Shown one piece after another: positions 11,079-59,256 of a DNA stretch of 64,000 nt (its first letter is position 1; every line of letters starts with the position of its first letter). The DNA is from Candidatus Nomurabacteria bacterium. GTDB lineage: Bacteria; Patescibacteriota; Minisyncoccia; Phycocordibacterales; UBA5272. Position numbers and translations under genes: made by a program. A model generated the notes under the pieces. It was not told the origin of the DNA. It saw only the letters and a list, made by a program, of their open reading frames with translations, and did not search any database. The stretch spans positions 80,726 through 144,725 of the forward strand of contig JBEIQD010000001.1 in NCBI GenBank assembly GCA_040376695.1, in the 5' to 3' direction.

Positions 11079-11588
11079 TTATTTCTCTTTCGGCAACACC
11101 TTTCGCTTACAGTAGCTAATGATTGCCAAACACAGGAGGGATAAACATATCGAAACCATAAGTATCCAAGAGGCTTCCCAGAACCTATTCAAAAGAAGCA
11201 AAGCTTCCTCAGGAGGTCTCATCGTTCCTCTTTTTCTGCCTTCGTAAATAATAGATTCGATGCCAATCGGCATTAGGTACACCACGAAGATTAGCAAGAG
11301 AATATTTAGGGGGATATAAGCTTTGTTCGCTTTCCCTTTCAAAAATTCTTCAGGGTTTGTGGCGAAGGTGCACAAAGACGCGGCTGGGTAGAGGAGTATG
11401 AAGCCTGAGAGCCCGCATACCATAAAAAGTATGCCGTTGGATTCTAAGAAAATGTCTGGCGATTTAGGCTCCATAAAATACAGCACTCCAACTGAGCCAA
11501 ACATCATGATAAGACTTAGTCCACCAAAAAAGGCGCCCGCATGCGCAAGCTTAGGGAGCTTTGGTTCTTTATTAATTACAGCACTCAT
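11079..11588 (-). CDS. hypothetical membrane protein
   Basis: 169-aa ORF with four or more hydrophobic segments. Confidence 0.45.
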   Translation of the reverse strand: MSAVINKEPKLPKLAHAGAFFGGLSLIMMFGSVGVLYFMEPKSPDIFLESNGILFMVCGLSGFILLYPAASLCTFATNPEEFLKGKANKAYIPLNILLLIFVVYLMPIGIESIIYEGRKRGTMRPPEEALLLLNRFWEASWILMVSICLSLLCLAIISYCKRKVLPKEK

Positions 11589-11701: not shown

Positions 11702-12019
11702 TTAGTTGATTGCGTCAATCTTAAGTGACATGAACGGCTGTCGGTGACCGTTACGCTTGTGGTAACGAGACTTAGCTCGGTAACGTACAACCATAACCTT
11801 ATCAAGCTTGCCTGATTCAGTGATAGTAGCCTTTACTGTAGAGCCTGCCACGTATGGAGCTCCAAGAGTAGTAGTAGCACCATCATCCTTAAGGACAACA
11901 GATTCGATAGTGATTGAATCACCTACCTTGTATTCACCCTTGATCTTCTCAACGGCGATTTCGTCCCCTACAGCAACTTTGTACTGCTTTCCCCCTGTTT
12001 GAATAACTGCGAATGTCAT
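11702..12019 (-). CDS. rplU: 50S ribosomal protein L21
   Basis: MTFAVIQTGGKQYKVAVGDEIAVEKI...: canonical L21 N-terminus. Confidence 0.9.
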   Translation of the reverse strand: MTFAVIQTGGKQYKVAVGDEIAVEKIKGEYKVGDSITIESVVLKDDGATTTLGAPYVAGSTVKATITESGKLDKVMVVRYRAKSRYHKRNGHRQPFMSLKIDAIN

Positions 12020-12077
12020 AGTTGAAGAATTATACCTTATTTGCCAATACTATGCAAGGTCTGGGGTTATATAACTA

Positions 12078-12105
12078 TTGACATAGTATGTATACATTGT
12101 ATAAT
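12078..12105 (+). promoter_or_regulatory. near-consensus sigma70 promoter, TTGACA-16-TATAAT
   Basis: ttgaca 12078-12083, tataat 12100-12105, about 30 nt upstream of the 12136 start. Confidence 0.55.
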
Positions 12106-12135
12106 GAGTAAGTTCTTTAACAATGGAGACTTTAT

Positions 12136-12438
12136 ATGAAATTCTGGCATGCTGTGTTCATTGCATTCATGCTCTGTGTCAGCGCTGTTGTGGCCTGGGA
12201 AAACCTTTCTGGTTACTACCGGCTGATGATGGTGCTGGCCCTGATTTTGTGGGTTCTGTTCGTCTTGGCTGCATTCTTGCTCCAGGTGTTCACGGCCGAA
12301 AGAGCCTATCGTCCATATCCGTTGGGAACCCGTTTTCAACGGAAGATGTTCTGGCGGACGGTGGCTCTCGGCCCCCTCATGTTTCTTTTTTTGGACCCTG
12401 TGTTCAAAGGGAAGCCTCTTATCAAACTGCCAGATTAA
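12136..12438 (+). CDS. small (100 aa) membrane protein encoded by a high-GC islet (hypothetical). Likely horizontally acquired.
   Basis: ORF with 2-3 TM helices. Codons are dominated by ctg/gcc/ggc, unlike neighbours. It is flanked by a consensus promoter and a strong terminator. Overlapping ORFs 12067..12465(-) and 12123..12725(+) look like GC-driven shadows. Confidence 0.5.
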   Translation: MKFWHAVFIAFMLCVSAVVAWENLSGYYRLMMVLALILWVLFVLAAFLLQVFTAERAYRPYPLGTRFQRKMFWRTVALGPLMFLFLDPVFKGKPLIKLPD

Positions 12439-12443
12439 ACCCC

Positions 12444-12476
12444 TGGTACCAAAAACGGCGCACATGTGCGCCGTTT
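12444..12476. terminator. bidirectional intrinsic terminator (aacggcgcac-at-gtgcgccgtt + T9)
   Basis: Perfect 10-bp GC-rich stem with A-tract 5' and T-tract 3'. Serves the 12136 gene (+) and rmuC (-). Confidence 0.7.
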
Positions 12477-12486
12477 TTTTTATTTC

Positions 12487-13542
12487 CTATTCTTCTTCGA
12501 ATGTCGGTTTGTCTAGAAGTGTTGGTTCAATCCCTATCTCCTCTCCCGTTATTCGAAGCACATCTTTATCTAACTTCTTCAGTTCCTTGTACGCTGTATT
12601 GTAATGATTCACACTTGTCCCCAATGTCACTCCAAGCTTTCTCATATAATCCTCATACGCCGCTAAGTGGTTACCAAGCTCTTCAACTCGCTTTTGGATA
12701 TGTTTTGCGCTCTCCTCAATCTTGAACGCCTTAAAGCCAAATAACACAGATTGGAGGTATGCATAGAACGTGGTCGGAGAAACAATAATCACCTTCTTTT
12801 TATTGTAAGCGTATTCAATTAAATTTTGCGTGTTAACCGCTCCCTTTGAAACCTGATTAACAAGAAGATCATAGTAGATACCTTCTGCTGGAATAAACAT
12901 AAAAGCGAACGGAAGCGTTCCTTCTTCTGGTTTAATATACTTAGCTGTTTCATCAATTCGTTTCTGAATATCTTTTTTGAATTCATTTTGATAAAAGGCT
13001 GTGTCTTCCTCATCGATAGCATTCATAAGACGCTGGTAGTTATCAAGAGAATACTTCGCATCTACTGGAATAATCCCTTCTTTTGTATGAATAACCGCAT
13101 CCACCGCTTCACCACTTTTAAAGTAATACTGCATTTCATATTGACCTGGGGCGAGCATGTTGGAAAGGATGAGTTCAAGAGACGCTTCGCCTAAATTTCC
13201 TCGTTGCTTCTGATGGGTAAGTACCTTCTCAAGGTTTTGAAGTTGCTCAGTCATTGAGAATACTTGTTTATTTCCTTCTTTCACCTCTGTAAGCTCTCGG
13301 GTGATGTCGGTAATGAGACGGTTGGCTTCTGCTCCTTGACGATGAAGCACTTGATGAAGGTCTGAAGCTGATCGTTCTAGTTTATTTTCTACCGTGTTAC
13401 GTAAACGTTCTAATTGGTCTTGAAGAATGAGAAATGTCTGATCTTCAGTATCATTGTTCTTTGTAGAACCACGAAGTAAGATAATGACGAGCAGTACAGT
13501 GATAATTGTTCCAAAAATGGCGATAAGAATAGTAGGAGTCAT
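12487..13542 (-). CDS. rmuC: DNA recombination protein RmuC
   Basis: N-terminal TM, long coiled-coil, then QKQRGNLGEASLELILSNMLAPGQYEMQYYF...GIIPVDAKY, the RmuC (DUF195) signature region. Confidence 0.8.
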   Translation of the reverse strand: MTPTILIAIFGTIITVLLVIILLRGSTKNNDTEDQTFLILQDQLERLRNTVENKLERSASDLHQVLHRQGAEANRLITDITRELTEVKEGNKQVFSMTEQLQNLEKVLTHQKQRGNLGEASLELILSNMLAPGQYEMQYYFKSGEAVDAVIHTKEGIIPVDAKYSLDNYQRLMNAIDEEDTAFYQNEFKKDIQKRIDETAKYIKPEEGTLPFAFMFIPAEGIYYDLLVNQVSKGAVNTQNLIEYAYNKKKVIIVSPTTFYAYLQSVLFGFKAFKIEESAKHIQKRVEELGNHLAAYEDYMRKLGVTLGTSVNHYNTAYKELKKLDKDVLRITGEEIGIEPTLLDKPTFEEE

Positions 13543-13612
13543 GTGATTTTAGTATAGCAGAGTCATTTAAATCTGACCTGAGGATGCTTACAACATCATA
13601 TCTTGAGAAACT

Positions 13613-13640
13613 TGACAATATTAACATATATGCTATATTG
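13613..13640 (+). promoter_or_regulatory. sigma70-like promoter, TTGACA-16-TATATT, upstream of the 65%-GC islet
   Basis: ttgaca 13613-13618 and tatatt 13635-13640. Confidence 0.4.
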
Positions 13641-13697
13641 ATGATGTCAAGCAATCGTGCTTGTCACGTGTTCATTTCAACTCAAGGAGAAAAGCCA

Positions 13698-13874
13698 ATG
13701 GCTCGCACTCATTCCCCTCCCCACAAAGGCACTGCCGCATTGAGCACCACTTTTACCTTCAAGCACAACGGCCTGGGCGCTGCACCACCCGATCCCGCCG
13801 GCCGCGCTGTTGACACCAAACGCCGTTCCGCCAAGACCCGTTCCCGCGGCGGCGCCGCCGTGACCATGCACTGA
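13698..13874 (+). CDS. 58-aa Arg/Ala/Pro/Gly-rich basic ORF in an islet of about 65% GC. A protein or a structured RNA; unresolved.
   Basis: AAGGAG RBS 8 nt upstream of ATG. MARTHSPPHKGTAALSTTFTFKHNGLGAAPPDPAGRAVDTKRRSAKTRSRGGAAVTMH. All six frames are open here because of GC, so ORF length alone is weak evidence. Confidence 0.3.
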   Translation: MARTHSPPHKGTAALSTTFTFKHNGLGAAPPDPAGRAVDTKRRSAKTRSRGGAAVTMH

Positions 13875-13977
13875 CCCGGCCAAGGGCTGGCCAGGCAGCG
13901 CAAACACTGCGCTGCCGTGCCTCCCAAAAAACCTGACGACTAGCTCGTCATAACGGTGACAAAGGACTCACCAATAA

Positions 13978-14012
13978 ACCATTCTCCAAAAGAGAGTGGT
14001 TTTTTATTTTTT
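13978..14012 (+). terminator. intrinsic terminator ending the high-GC islet transcript
   Basis: ccattctc-caaaa-gagagtgg followed by tttttatttttt. Confidence 0.45.
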
Positions 14013-14044
14013 CCAATTAAGGACCATGGTATAATACCTTTACT

Positions 14045-14812: not shown

Positions 14813-14835
14813 GGATATTTTTGGTAACTATTGAC

Positions 14836-14866
14836 AGTATGCGAATCATATCGCATACTGTTTTTA
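14836..14866 (+). terminator. intrinsic terminator (cagtatgcga-atcata-tcgcatactg + T5)
   Basis: Perfect 10-bp inverted repeat followed by ttttt. Confidence 0.6.
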
Positions 14867-14896
14867 GTTGTTGCAATTAATTAAAAGGAGTTTTCC

Positions 14897-15325
14897 GTGG
14901 AAAATGAACCATTTGATAAAGAAACCCAACGAAAAGCCTACGAATTGATTGATACAGGCCGACAGTTTTACGGTCTGTTCTGGAGAAATCGCACACGCAC
15001 TGCAACACAGCTCGGATATGGGGACTGGGAAAATGTTCCTGAAAAGATCCGCAGATGTGTCAACCAGATTGGTCGCGGCGCCAAGCTTCGCCACGCACAA
15101 GAAAGGAGAGAAATAGCCTGCAATCAAAAGCCTCCCGTTCGAAAAAAGATTGAAGGGTTTGTGCTCAGCAAGGACTCTCTCTCTGATATCTTGGATCGGG
15201 CGCTGTTGGTTCCGAAAAGTGCACGGCCAGATCAAATAAAAATAATTCGTGAATATATCACGAGGCAAGCAGGATTTGACCCCACAAGAATCCTCCTCCA
15301 GATACATTCCTACATGGAACACTGA
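14897..15325 (+). CDS. hypothetical protein (GTG start; higher-GC than surroundings)
   Basis: AAGGAG at 14885-14890, 6 nt before GTG 14897. Terminator agacaccgcggtgtct + T10 immediately after the stop. The opposite-strand ORF 14864..15322 lacks these signals. Confidence 0.5.
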   Translation: MENEPFDKETQRKAYELIDTGRQFYGLFWRNRTRTATQLGYGDWENVPEKIRRCVNQIGRGAKLRHAQERREIACNQKPPVRKKIEGFVLSKDSLSDILDRALLVPKSARPDQIKIIREYITRQAGFDPTRILLQIHSYMEH

Positions 15326-15345
15326 CCACAGTGCTCTATCTAATC

Positions 15346-15376
15346 AAAAAGACACCGCGGTGTCTTTTTTTTATTT
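15346..15376. terminator. bidirectional intrinsic terminator
   Basis: aaaaagacaccgcggtgtcttttttttt. Confidence 0.6.
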
Positions 15377-58332: not shown

Positions 58333-58361
58333 TTGACAAAACACTTAATTAATGCTATAAT
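58333..58361 (+). promoter_or_regulatory. consensus sigma70 promoter TTGACA-17-TATAAT upstream of the L,D-transpeptidase gene
   Basis: ttgaca 58333-58338, tataat 58356-58361. Confidence 0.55.
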
Positions 58362-58428: not shown

Positions 58429-59256
58429 ATGACACTAACCAGAAAACAATACATTCTTCTGCTCACCACACTTTGTATCATGGTGTGTTTTCTGGTAATA
58501 AAGAACCCTTCTACTGTTATCGCCCAATCAACTACACAGTCTTCATTCGCTCCTGTAGTAATTACTTCATCTAATTCACAGAAGCAATATGAATACCTCG
58601 AAATCACAGAAGGTTGTGATACGTATGCTGAAATGGTTTGTGTATCTGTGCATGCGGGCCCTGGTGCGGAATATGAAAAAATATACGAGCTCCGTAAAGG
58701 AATGCTTCTTAAAATAAAAAGTACTGAACTACGAAATGGTCAGGTATGGTATCAGGTATATTTTGATGAATGGCTCAGATTTCCTGGCCGAGTAGAAGGA
58801 AATTGGTACATACCGGCTGTTGCAGGAAAAGTTATTACAGCTGGCGGAGAAGAACTCCTTACACCGTCAACGCCGACAACTTCTAAAAGAATTGTCATAG
58901 ACCTTTCTGATCACATGTTATATGCATATGATGGGAATACAGAATTCATGAGAACAAAAATCTCTACTGGAGTTGAAGCAACCCCAACGCCAGCCGGTAC
59001 GTTCACTGTGTACAAGAAAACTCCAAGCAGGTACATGCAAGGTCCGCTTGAAGGAGTAACTGAAATCCCTTTTGACTTACCTGGTGTACCGTGGAACTTA
59101 TACTTCACCCAAGATGGTGCGGTTATTCATGGTACTTATTGGCATGATCGTTACGGAACAGATCAATCAAGTGGATGTATCAATCTTCCAGCAGAACTTT
59201 CAAAAATTATCTACGACTGGGCGCCACTTGGGACTACGGTAACAATACAGAGATAA
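58429..59256 (+). CDS. L,D-transpeptidase (YkuD-family catalytic domain)
   Basis: ...TGVEATPTPAGTFTVYKK...GAVIHGTYWHDRYGTDQSSGCINLP: conserved H...S.GC catalytic motif. Confidence 0.8.
   Translation: MTLTRKQYILLLTTLCIMVCFLVIKNPSTVIAQSTTQSSFAPVVITSSNSQKQYEYLEITEGCDTYAEMVCVSVHAGPGAEYEKIYELRKGMLLKIKSTELRNGQVWYQVYFDEWLRFPGRVEGNWYIPAVAGKVITAGGEELLTPSTPTTSKRIVIDLSDHMLYAYDGNTEFMRTKISTGVEATPTPAGTFTVYKKTPSRYMQGPLEGVTEIPFDLPGVPWNLYFTQDGAVIHGTYWHDRYGTDQSSGCINLPAELSKIIYDWAPLGTTVTIQR

What the first reader, a model, noticed from the sequence alone, without database searches (positions are those of the whole stretch)
12078..12476. High-GC small membrane protein gene with consensus promoter and strong terminator
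A 100-aa, 2-3 TM ORF (12136..12438) uses GC-rich codons (about 52% GC by eye), unlike all neighbouring genes. It is driven by a near-perfect TTGACA-16-TATAAT promoter and closed by a 10-bp GC hairpin plus T9. Together with the 13.7 kb islet, it brackets rmuC.

The composition suggests recent horizontal acquisition of a highly expressed small membrane protein. Possible roles include a toxin, an immunity protein or a stress peptide.
Basis: seen in the sequence. Interest (0 to 1): 0.5.

Follow-up and report, generated by a model that had tools for sequence, protein, structure and literature searches.

The report
Old lineage-specific small membrane protein gene
This is a real, self-contained gene for a 100-residue, three-helix membrane protein of unknown function, found only in one small group of uncultured Patescibacteria (CPR bacteria); it has sat in the same spot for a long time, so its odd GC-rich codon usage is an old, stable trait and not a sign of recent gene transfer.

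Summary
There is a perfect TTGACA-16-TATAAT promoter, a GGAG ribosome-binding site, a 100-codon ORF (12136..12438) and a bidirectional terminator shared with rmuC. The ORF is 50.5% GC with GC3 0.62, against a window mean GC3 of 0.33 (z about +4.9).

The gene is protein-coding. dN/dS is 0.14-0.35, all indels are in frame, and only this frame stays open in every homolog.

"Recent horizontal acquisition" is not supported. Every homolog with readable context sits in the same rplU/rmuC slot in Paceibacteria-type CPR genomes. These relatives differ by dS of about 0.7-2, similar to RecR and RmuC, yet all keep GC3 0.50-0.71, the promoter and the terminator. More distant relatives carry remote homologs in the same slot (hhalign 92%) with ordinary GC3.

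The slot itself is an old insertion. In distant Paceibacteria rmuC and rplU lie 28-83 bp apart.

The family is tiny, about 17 clusters in 5.8 billion proteins. It has no Pfam, NCBIfam, PADLOC, PHROG, PDB or viral match, so function is unknown. My inference is a membrane-anchored accessory protein that works through a conserved loop and helix-3 motif (RPxPxGTRxQ+xxFW…GP).

ORF100 is the extreme member of a minority class of SD-led, GC3-elevated genes in a largely SD-less, leaderless-looking genome.

The parts
12078..12105 (+). Sigma-70-type promoter: -35 TTGACA (12078-12083), 16-nt spacer, -10 TATAAT (12100-12105). The inferred TSS is near 12112.
   Evidence: a perfect 12/12 match, 2 in 64 kb against 0.08 expected. 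The -35 is invariant and the -10 is TATAAT, TAGAAT or TACAAT in L003, L004, L005, L007, L087 and L091. The ATTGACAT -35 sits in the same position relative to the rplU promoter in the remote relatives L018 and L022. The TSS is inferred.
12106..12135 (+). Short 5' UTR with the Shine-Dalgarno site GGAG (12125-12128) 7 nt before the ATG. A weak conserved hairpin (UCUUUA/UGGAGA) could occlude the SD.
   Evidence: the UTR is nearly invariant in 5 homologs but shows no covariation; only about 9-16 of 85 genes in the window have an SD-like motif.
12136..12438 (+). CDS for a 100-aa protein with three hydrophobic helices (about 3-21, 30-52 and 66/75-90). A conserved Arg-rich loop and helix-3 motif reads ERAYRPYPLGTRFQRKMFWRTVALGP. 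GC is 50.5%, GC3 0.62 and A3 0.12.
   Evidence: dN/dS is 0.14-0.35. Differences by codon position run pos3 > pos1 > pos2. All indels are multiples of 3. Only this frame is open in all homologs. Invariant residues are W21, W39, P60, G64, T65, Q68, F72, G79 and P80.
12451..12481 (.). Bidirectional intrinsic terminator shared by the convergent ORF100 (+) and rmuC (-): A5, a perfect palindrome CGGCGCACA/TGTGCGCCG, then T8.
   Evidence: It is conserved in L003, L004, L005, L007 and L087, and a different hairpin plus T-run sits at the same place in L091, L010, L011, L016, L019, L020 and L022.
12029..12057 (-). Context: the inferred back-to-back rplU promoter (-35 TTGCAT, 17-nt spacer, -10 TATAAT). 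The -10 box ends 9 nt before the rplU ATG, so the mRNA looks leaderless. It lies 20 nt from the ORF100 -35.
   Evidence: the sequence is identical in L003 and L004; the same TATAAT-plus-9-nt-plus-ATG layout occurs at yqeY, and similar boxes at 24 or more of 85 genes. This is inferred, not demonstrated.

Best explanation
ORF100 is a monocistronic transcription unit: a consensus sigma-70 promoter, an SD-led 5' UTR, a 100-codon CDS and a bidirectional terminator. It encodes a lineage-specific three-helix integral membrane protein. It is an old, vertically inherited resident of the rmuC/rplU spacer in one genus- to family-level clade of Paceibacteria-type Patescibacteria (CPR).

A small-gene slot arose there by insertion between the ancestrally adjacent rmuC and rplU, on the opposite strand and back-to-back with the rplU promoter. 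Since then the gene has evolved under moderate purifying selection. The helix-1 and helix-2 sequences drift fast. The loop-2/helix-3 motif (RPxPxGTRxQ[RK]xxFW-x5-GP; GPxNPFGxxxERxxFW-x5-GP in remote members) is held fixed.

The GC-rich, A-poor, rare-codon usage is a stable property of the gene in this subclade. It has persisted across saturated synonymous divergence, so it is not a footprint of recent transfer.

Functional inference (not shown): the protein is an abundantly made membrane-anchored accessory or adaptor protein. The positive-inside rule suggests N-in/C-out topology. Its conserved juxtamembrane loop would be the working surface, contacting a partner or lipid headgroups, while the helices serve mainly as anchors.
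For: Real coding gene:
- dN/dS is 0.14-0.35 in all 10 pairwise comparisons.
- Differences by codon position run pos3 > pos1 > pos2, and indels are in frame.
- Alternative frames are interrupted in L003, L004 and L007.

Vertical and old:
- Every homolog with readable context is in the same recR-[variable TM gene]-rplU<- ->X-> <-rmuC ... yqeY arrangement.
- ORF100 dS of 0.66-2.2 is comparable to RecR and RmuC dS of 0.7-1.3.
- GC3 is 0.50-0.71 and A3 0.12-0.23 in all close members, against 0.29-0.45 in flanking genes. The promoter is conserved in all but L089, where none was detected and no downstream terminator could be read; the terminator is conserved in the others.

Family extends to GC-normal relatives in the same slot:
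- hhalign probability is 91.7% with E = 7.7e-7 over TM2-loop-TM3.
- An untrained member in L008 is hit at 1.4e-7.
- The back-to-back promoter layout is shared with L018 and L022.

The slot is an insertion: the rmuC-rplU gap is 28-83 bp in 11 more distant Paceibacteria and in L009, but 340-1570 bp in this clade.

The codon usage does not reflect translational optimisation. It favours CTG, TTG, GTG, GCC, ACG and CGG, which are rare both in bulk genes and in the r-protein genes of the window.

Structure: three confident helices, pLDDT 77. Loop 2 has net charge +5.

No mobile-element signs: there are no flanking repeats and no viral-contig or PHROG match.
Against: - Function is entirely inferred. 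There are no Pfam, NCBIfam, PADLOC, PHROG or PDB sequence matches and no informative fold match (54/59, 74, 77, 79).
- Topology is ambiguous. Remote members have a neutral or acidic loop 2 and Lys/Arg-rich C-tails.
- Expression level is unmeasured.
- An ancient foreign origin is not excluded. With about 0.5-1 synonymous substitutions per site per lineage, a gene imported with GC3 of about 0.9 could still sit near 0.55-0.65.
- The polarised-substitution test had too few sites (3 AT>GC against 2 GC>AT).
- The force that keeps GC3 high is unidentified.
- The gene also shares SD-led initiation with other GC3-elevated orphan genes, which fits a foreign-origin class.
Confidence: 0.6

Rival explanations
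1. Ancient horizontal acquisition. A GC-rich, SD-using donor gene, or a cassette, was inserted between rmuC and rplU at or near the base of the clade. Today's GC3 of 0.5-0.7 is residual and incompletely ameliorated. The GC-normal remote homologs are the more fully ameliorated copies.
For: - The slot is an insertion relative to the 28-83 bp rmuC-rplU spacing of distant Paceibacteria.
- Codon usage is unlike both bulk and r-protein genes.
- The gene is SD-led in a genome where most genes lack an SD, and strong-SD genes as a class have higher GC3 (0.446 against 0.328, p = 0.0016).
- A second GC-rich SD-led small gene (ORF58) fills the other rmuC spacer in the same subclade.
- RmuC itself shows two deeply diverged allele classes uncoupled from L21 identity, so gene flow does occur at this locus.
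Against: - No homolog exists outside this clade or this slot in 5.8-15 billion proteins, so there is no candidate donor.
- There are no mobility genes or flanking repeats.
- Sister clades of equal age would have to ameliorate very differently (0.31-0.43 against 0.50-0.71).
- The few polarisable synonymous changes show no GC>AT excess (underpowered).
Confidence: 0.25
2. Recent horizontal acquisition of a toxin, immunity or stress peptide gene.
For: The composition is an outlier (GC3 z = +4.9). The gene has its own strong promoter and terminator. It encodes a small hydrophobic product.
Against: - The gene is present in the same slot with the same composition and signals in all close relatives, which are separated by dS of about 1.
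- It is under purifying selection.
- PADLOC, PHROG and viral-contig searches are negative.
- There is no partner gene (bacteriocin, endolysin, antitoxin or antisense promoter) nearby.
- At 100 aa with 3 helices it does not fit type I toxins.
Confidence: 0.03
3. The GC-richness serves the RNA. The transcript is a structured or dual-function RNA, or a deliberately stable, highly structured mRNA, and synonymous G/C is selected for folding.
For: CDS-only folding z-scores are negative in all five close homologs (-3.3, -1.5, -1.3, -2.4, -2.0). The background from 40 gene segments of the window is -0.05 +/- 1.2. The full transcript has z = -5.1. The 5' UTR is nearly invariant.
Against: - The RNAalifold covariation term is only -0.76 kcal/mol, with few compensatory pairs.
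- There is no Rfam match beyond the terminator.
- The coding signature is clear.
- The homologs are not independent samples.
Confidence: 0.07
4. De novo birth. The gene, like the unrelated small TM genes found in the same slot in other lineages, arose from T-rich, A-poor spacer sequence on the strand opposite rmuC/rplU and was later refined by selection.
For: - The family is confined to one clade and one slot.
- At least two or three unrelated small-TM families occupy the same spacer in sister lineages.
- The A-poor strand leaves several frames open.
- The product is simple helices with no fold relatives.
Against: - No non-coding precursor sequence has been identified.
- The consensus promoter, SD site and a well-conserved 25-residue motif indicate a mature gene.
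- The model cannot be distinguished from divergence beyond recognition.
Confidence: 0.05

Closest known systems
Bacterial small membrane proteins that act as accessory or regulatory subunits of larger membrane complexes (e.g. AcrZ, KdpF, MgtS, CydX; from general knowledge, not tested here)
   Same: It is a short, almost entirely helical hydrophobic product with its own small transcription unit. It is lineage-restricted and fast-evolving, and has no enzymatic motif.
   Different: Those proteins are mostly under 50 aa with one TM helix, and are usually encoded next to or co-regulated with their partner. ORF100 is 100 aa with three helices, and no partner gene is evident. There is no sequence or fold similarity.
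Phage holins and type I toxins (small hydrophobic lethal peptides)
   Same: Size class, multiple TM helices, a strong promoter and a short charged C-terminus.
   Different: There is no endolysin, prophage or antisense RNA context. PHROG, PADLOC and viral-contig searches gave no match. The gene is conserved next to housekeeping genes over long divergence, with dN/dS of about 0.2.
Compositionally atypical genomic islets acquired by HGT
   Same: It is a GC3 outlier with atypical codon usage. It is inserted between genes that are adjacent in other members of the class.
   Different: It is fixed, syntenic and equally atypical in all close relatives across dS of about 1. There are no integrase, tRNA or repeat boundaries. 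Remote homologs in situ have normal composition.
De novo emerged transmembrane ORFs from thymine-rich sequence (described in yeast; from general knowledge)
   Same: The coding strand is T-rich and A-poor (33% T, 16% A). The product is simple TM helices. The distribution is orphan-like, and the slot repeatedly hosts unrelated small TM ORFs.
   Different: This is a bacterial gene with mature expression signals and a conserved motif, and no ancestral non-coding state has been observed.

Membership tests
Any curated protein family (Pfam-A, NCBIfam) | Score above the family's gathering or curated cut-off | tested here: not met
   The best hit for ORF100 is Toddler at E = 0.032 (15 bits against a cut-off of 27). 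No family is shared by more than 2 of 19 members.
Anti-phage defence or toxin systems (PADLOC) | Match to a defence-system protein model, and partner genes nearby | tested here: not met
   0 hits for ORF100. The neighbours are rplU, rmuC, recR, dnaB and yqeY.
Phage holin | Phage or prophage context with an adjacent endolysin, and membership of a PHROG holin family | tested here: not met
   one member gave one weak hit to an unannotated PHROG; no relative in 2.9 M viral contigs. All loci show housekeeping context.
Type I toxin-antitoxin toxin | Peptide under about 60 aa with a single TM helix, and an overlapping or adjacent antisense RNA gene | tested here: not met
   The product is 100 aa with 3 helices. 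The only minus-strand promoter-like site nearby (12123..12096, 9/12) is at chance level and points towards rplU. The antisense frame is not conserved.
Recently acquired genomic islet | Presence/absence polymorphism among close relatives | tested here: not met
   The gene is present in the same slot in all 8 distinct close lineages with readable context. Absence or replacement is seen only in more distant species (L009, L010, L012-14, L063).
Recently acquired genomic islet | Atypical composition relative to the host genome | tested here: met
   GC3 is 0.62 against 0.33 +/- 0.06, and the gene uses rare codons. The same atypicality is seen in all close homologs, so it does not date the event as recent.
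Recently acquired genomic islet | Mobility signatures: an integrase or transposase, a tRNA target, or flanking direct or inverted repeats | tested here: not met
   None was found apart from the terminator palindrome and a promoter-region similarity between the rplU and yqeY starts.
Structured non-coding or dual-function RNA | Rfam match or conserved secondary structure with covariation | tested here: inconclusive
   Rfam finds nothing except terminator look-alikes. The covariation term is -0.76 kcal/mol. CDS fold z-scores are consistently negative, with a mean of about -2.1.
Independent sigma-70 / intrinsic-terminator transcription unit | Consensus -35/-10 with 16-18 nt spacing, an SD site, and a hairpin plus U-tract, all conserved in orthologs | tested here: met
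   Activity in vivo is not testable with these tools.

The most novel reading that the evidence does not exclude
In one Paceibacteria subclade, both spacers flanking rmuC have been colonised by small, SD-led, strongly promoted, GC-rich genes (ORF100 and the 58-aa ORF of the 13.7-kb islet). The rest of the genome is AT-rich, largely SD-less and apparently leaderless.

On this reading the high synonymous GC is actively maintained, by selection on mRNA structure or stability, by the SD-dependent translation mode, or by GC-biased conversion at a recombination-prone locus. It would then mark a distinct expression class of lineage-specific small proteins, possibly born de novo in these spacers, and not foreign DNA.
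Probability: 0.15. Interest if true: 0.6.

Novelty: new member of a known kind. Interest (0 to 1): 0.3.

Why it matters
On its own this is one more uncharacterised small membrane protein in a CPR genome.

Its value is as a cautionary and tractable case. A strong compositional anomaly that looks like fresh HGT is in fact an old, fixed, selected trait. It also points to a genome-wide split between two gene classes: leaderless, SD-less, AT-rich core genes and SD-led, GC3-elevated, lineage-specific small genes. That split could inform how translation initiation and gene origination work in Patescibacteria.

If the protein is as abundant as its signals suggest, it is a candidate envelope component of an episymbiotic lineage for which almost no membrane biology is known.

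Tried and rejected
- **Hypervariable or diversifying gene.** ORF100 is 53-59% aa identical where DnaB, RecR and L21 are 97-100%. I rejected this reading because neighbour dS is already about 1 and ORF100 dN/dS is 0.14-0.35. This is relaxed constraint, not positive selection or a DGR target.
- **Translational optimisation as the cause of high GC3.** Rejected because the preferred codons are rare in the r-protein genes.
- **A general membrane-protein effect.** Rejected because 11 other TM genes in the window have GC3 of about 0.30.
- **An overlapping antisense gene (132-aa ORF at 12067..12465, minus strand) or the alternative plus-frame ORF at 12123..12725.** Rejected because both frames carry stops in L003, L004 and L007.
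- **A known ncRNA in the ORF or islet.** Rfam at gathering and at E <= 10, plus ARAGORN, found nothing.
- **MazF-type ACA avoidance.** There are 0-1 ACA triplets against 2-3 expected, which is too weak to claim.
- **Metagenome and viral pattern scans with the family motif.** No confirmed relatives.
- **Polarising synonymous changes to test amelioration.** Only 6 informative sites.
- **Literature searches.** No paper in the searchable library links Patescibacteria with codon usage and GC3; a second search returned nothing relevant.
- **Flanking-repeat search for mobile-element scars.** Nothing found.

Full report
**What is in the sequence**

At 12078..12105 (+) there is a perfect TTGACA-16-TATAAT promoter. 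Only two such sites occur in the 64-kb window against 0.08 expected, and 0 of 100 dinucleotide shuffles reached two. GGAG (12125-12128) lies 7 nt before the ATG at 12136. The ORF runs to the TAA at 12436-12438 and encodes 100 aa.

Twelve nucleotides further on is AAAAACGGCGCACA/TGTGCGCCGTTTTT (12451..12478), a 14-nt perfect palindrome followed by a run of 8 T. With A5 upstream and T8 downstream, it also terminates the convergent rmuC (12487..13542, minus strand). So this is a bidirectional terminator.

The ORF is 50.5% GC, with GC by codon position 0.53/0.36/0.62. The window is 39.9% GC. GC3 of 76 ORFs of at least 80 aa averages 0.326 +/- 0.06 with a maximum of 0.49, so ORF100 lies at z = +4.9.

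**Is it a protein-coding gene?**

Yes, on several grounds.
- Five homologs at 50-100% identity were found among 5.8 billion proteins, and six more in an exhaustive profile search of 1.84 billion representatives.
- Codon alignments give dN/dS of 0.14-0.35 for all pairs. Differences run pos3 > pos1 > pos2, and every indel is a multiple of three.
- The other sense frame and the antisense frame that happen to be open in the window are interrupted in L003, L004 and L007. They are by-products of the A-poor composition.
- Rfam finds only terminator look-alikes.
- The CDS folds somewhat better than shuffled controls in all five homologs (z = -1.3 to -3.3, background -0.05 +/- 1.2). RNAalifold finds almost no covariation (-0.76 kcal/mol). 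An RNA-level role is therefore not excluded, but it is unsupported.

**Where the gene comes from**

The window belongs to a Patescibacteria (CPR) genome of the Paceibacteria/'Nomurabacteria' type. The closest species representative is MAG nzgw467, with L21 98% identical.

Every homolog whose contig could be read sits in the same place: cysS-dnaB-recR-[variable TM gene]-rplU(<-) (->)ORF100 (<-)rmuC ... yqeY.

At first sight the gene looks hypervariable. It is 53-59% aa identical where DnaB, RecR and L21 are 97-100%. However, RecR and RmuC already differ by dS of about 1.0-1.3 between these genomes, and ORF100's dS (0.7-2.2) is in the same range. The relatives are simply old, and ORF100 is less constrained than its housekeeping neighbours.

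All close homologs keep GC3 of 0.50-0.71 (flanking genes 0.29-0.45). Most keep a TTGACA-16/17-TAnAAT promoter, none being detected upstream of the L089 copy. All keep the SD, and all that could be read keep the terminator.

**Deeper history**

In species whose L21 is 69-83% identical, the same slot holds 108-160-aa membrane proteins. They share TM2-loop-TM3 with ORF100: GPxNPFGxxxERxxFW-x5-GP against RPxPxGTRxQ[RK]xxFW-x5-GP. Three results support homology.
- Profile-profile comparison gives 91.7% probability with E = 7.7e-7.
- A combined HMM recovers an untrained member in L008 at 1.4e-7.
- L018 and L022 share the back-to-back promoter layout with rplU.

These remote members have ordinary GC3 of 0.31-0.43.

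In 11 more distant Paceibacteria, and in L009, rmuC and rplU are only 28-83 bp apart. The slot is therefore an old insertion on the opposite strand that split an ancestral rmuC-rplU pair. Within the clade the slot is labile. It is empty in L009 and holds unrelated small TM genes in L010, L012, L013 and L063.

No repeats, integrase or tRNA mark the boundaries. No relative exists on viral contigs.

**The composition puzzle**

The codon bias is not translational optimisation. ORF100 prefers CTG, TTG, GTG, GCC, ACG and CGG, which are rare in bulk genes and in the window's r-protein genes. It is not a membrane-protein effect either, because other TM genes have GC3 of about 0.30.

Two further observations put the gene in context.
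- The other rmuC spacer (rmuC-yqeY) is 45-220 bp in most Paceibacteria. It is expanded and GC-rich in the same subclade. There it encodes a conserved SD-led 58-60-aa ORF with 66% GC, its own TTGACA promoter and a terminator.
- The genome is largely SD-less. Only 9 of 85 genes have GGAG or GAGG at the right distance, while 24 or more have a TATAAT/TATACT box ending 5-10 nt before the start codon, which looks leaderless. These include rplU, yqeY, rmuC and recR. The strong-SD genes have higher GC3: 0.446 against 0.328, Mann-Whitney p = 0.0016, and p = 0.016 without ORF100 and ORF58. Most have no Pfam family.

ORF100 is thus the extreme member of a minority class of SD-led, GC3-elevated, lineage-specific genes.

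I could not decide whether that class reflects ancient foreign origin or a distinct, selected expression mode. The polarised-substitution test had only six informative sites. A back-of-envelope amelioration argument does not exclude an import with very high initial GC3.

**What the protein looks like and may do**

AlphaFold2 with the 11-sequence alignment gives three helices, at residues 2-23, 26-53 and 66-82. Mean pLDDT is 77 and the C-terminus is disordered. Loop 2 carries net charge +5, which by the positive-inside rule suggests N-in/C-out topology. Remote members have different charge patterns, so this is tentative.

Invariant residues cluster at the loop-2/helix-3 junction (P60, G64, T65, Q68, F72, G79, P80) plus W21 and W39. 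The rest of helices 1 and 2 drifts.

My committed but inferred reading is a strongly transcribed, membrane-anchored accessory or adaptor protein whose conserved juxtamembrane loop is the functional surface. Toxin, holin and immunity roles have no positive support.

**Verdict**

The feature is real and the description accurate. The headline interpretation of recent HGT is not supported. The gene is an old, fixed, purifying-selected, clade-specific small membrane protein gene in an anciently inserted and evolutionarily labile slot.

It is a new, uncharacterised member of a familiar kind of thing. The persistent GC-rich codon usage and its association with SD-led initiation in a leaderless-looking CPR genome are the only aspects of wider interest.

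Noticed in passing
window 13612-14010 (+); also L001, L004, L007, L087/88: The '13.7-kb GC islet' is a separate small transcription unit. It has a TTGACA-16-TATATT promoter (13612..13639), an AAGGAG SD, and a conserved 58-60-aa ORF at 13698..13874 (MARTH[SP]PPHKGT...KRR...MH; 66% GC, GC3 0.68-0.78). A hairpin-rich 3' UTR (e.g. 13889-13921) and a terminator at 13976..14002 follow. It has no Pfam or Rfam match. The rmuC-yqeY spacer is 45-220 bp in most Paceibacteria and is expanded and GC-rich only in the subclade that also has GC-rich ORF100.
   Followed up: partly
whole window, e.g. rplU (TATAAT 12034->12029, ATG 12019), yqeY (TATAAT 14030-14035, ATG 14045), rmuC, recR: Most genes lack a Shine-Dalgarno motif. 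At 24 or more of 85 genes a TATAAT/TATACT box ends 5-10 nt upstream of the start codon, suggesting widespread leaderless mRNAs. The 9 strong-SD genes have significantly higher GC3 (0.446 against 0.328, p = 0.0016) and are mostly family-less.
   Followed up: partly
window 12487-13542 (-) rmuC; L003, L008, L010, L016, L019 against the others: RmuC identity to the window copy is bimodal, 85-99% or 58-71%, and is uncoupled from L21 identity. L003 has 65% RmuC identity but 97-99% for DnaB, RecR and L21. L002, which carries the same ORF100 protein, is a 87-100% nt mosaic within rmuC. This suggests allelic replacement or recombination at this locus.
   Followed up: partly
window 11702-12019 (-) rplU: rplU has dS of only 0.07-0.20 between genomes whose RecR and RmuC dS is about 1.0-1.3. 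This implies very strong synonymous constraint or recent homogenisation.
   Followed up: no
window 11079-11588 (-): A 169-aa, roughly 4-TM gene on the other side of rplU has GC3 of 0.49. It is only 27% identical to the gene in the same slot in L004 and is absent in L003. This is a second labile small-membrane-protein slot flanking rplU.
   Followed up: partly
L012:2339-2728, L013:1907-2182, L063:5606-5854 (all on the strand opposite L21): A different small TM protein family (motif EDIQxxPxPxxxG[YF]xxxFxxSW) occupies the rmuC-rplU slot in these sister species. L010 carries yet another GC-rich 113-aa TM ORF there.
   Followed up: no
window 14831-15369 (+): This is another SD-led (AAGGAG), GC-elevated (GC3 0.45) gene, at 14897..15325 (142 aa, no Pfam). 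It has a TTGACA-17-CATACT promoter-like site at 14831 and a terminator at 15346..15369. It is absent from the same position in L003, and L087 has a different 124-aa gene there.
   Followed up: no
window 58333-58361 (+): This is the only other perfect TTGACA-17-TATAAT promoter in the window. It lies about 70 nt upstream of the 275-aa ORF at 58429..59256, which has normal GC3 of 0.31.
   Followed up: no
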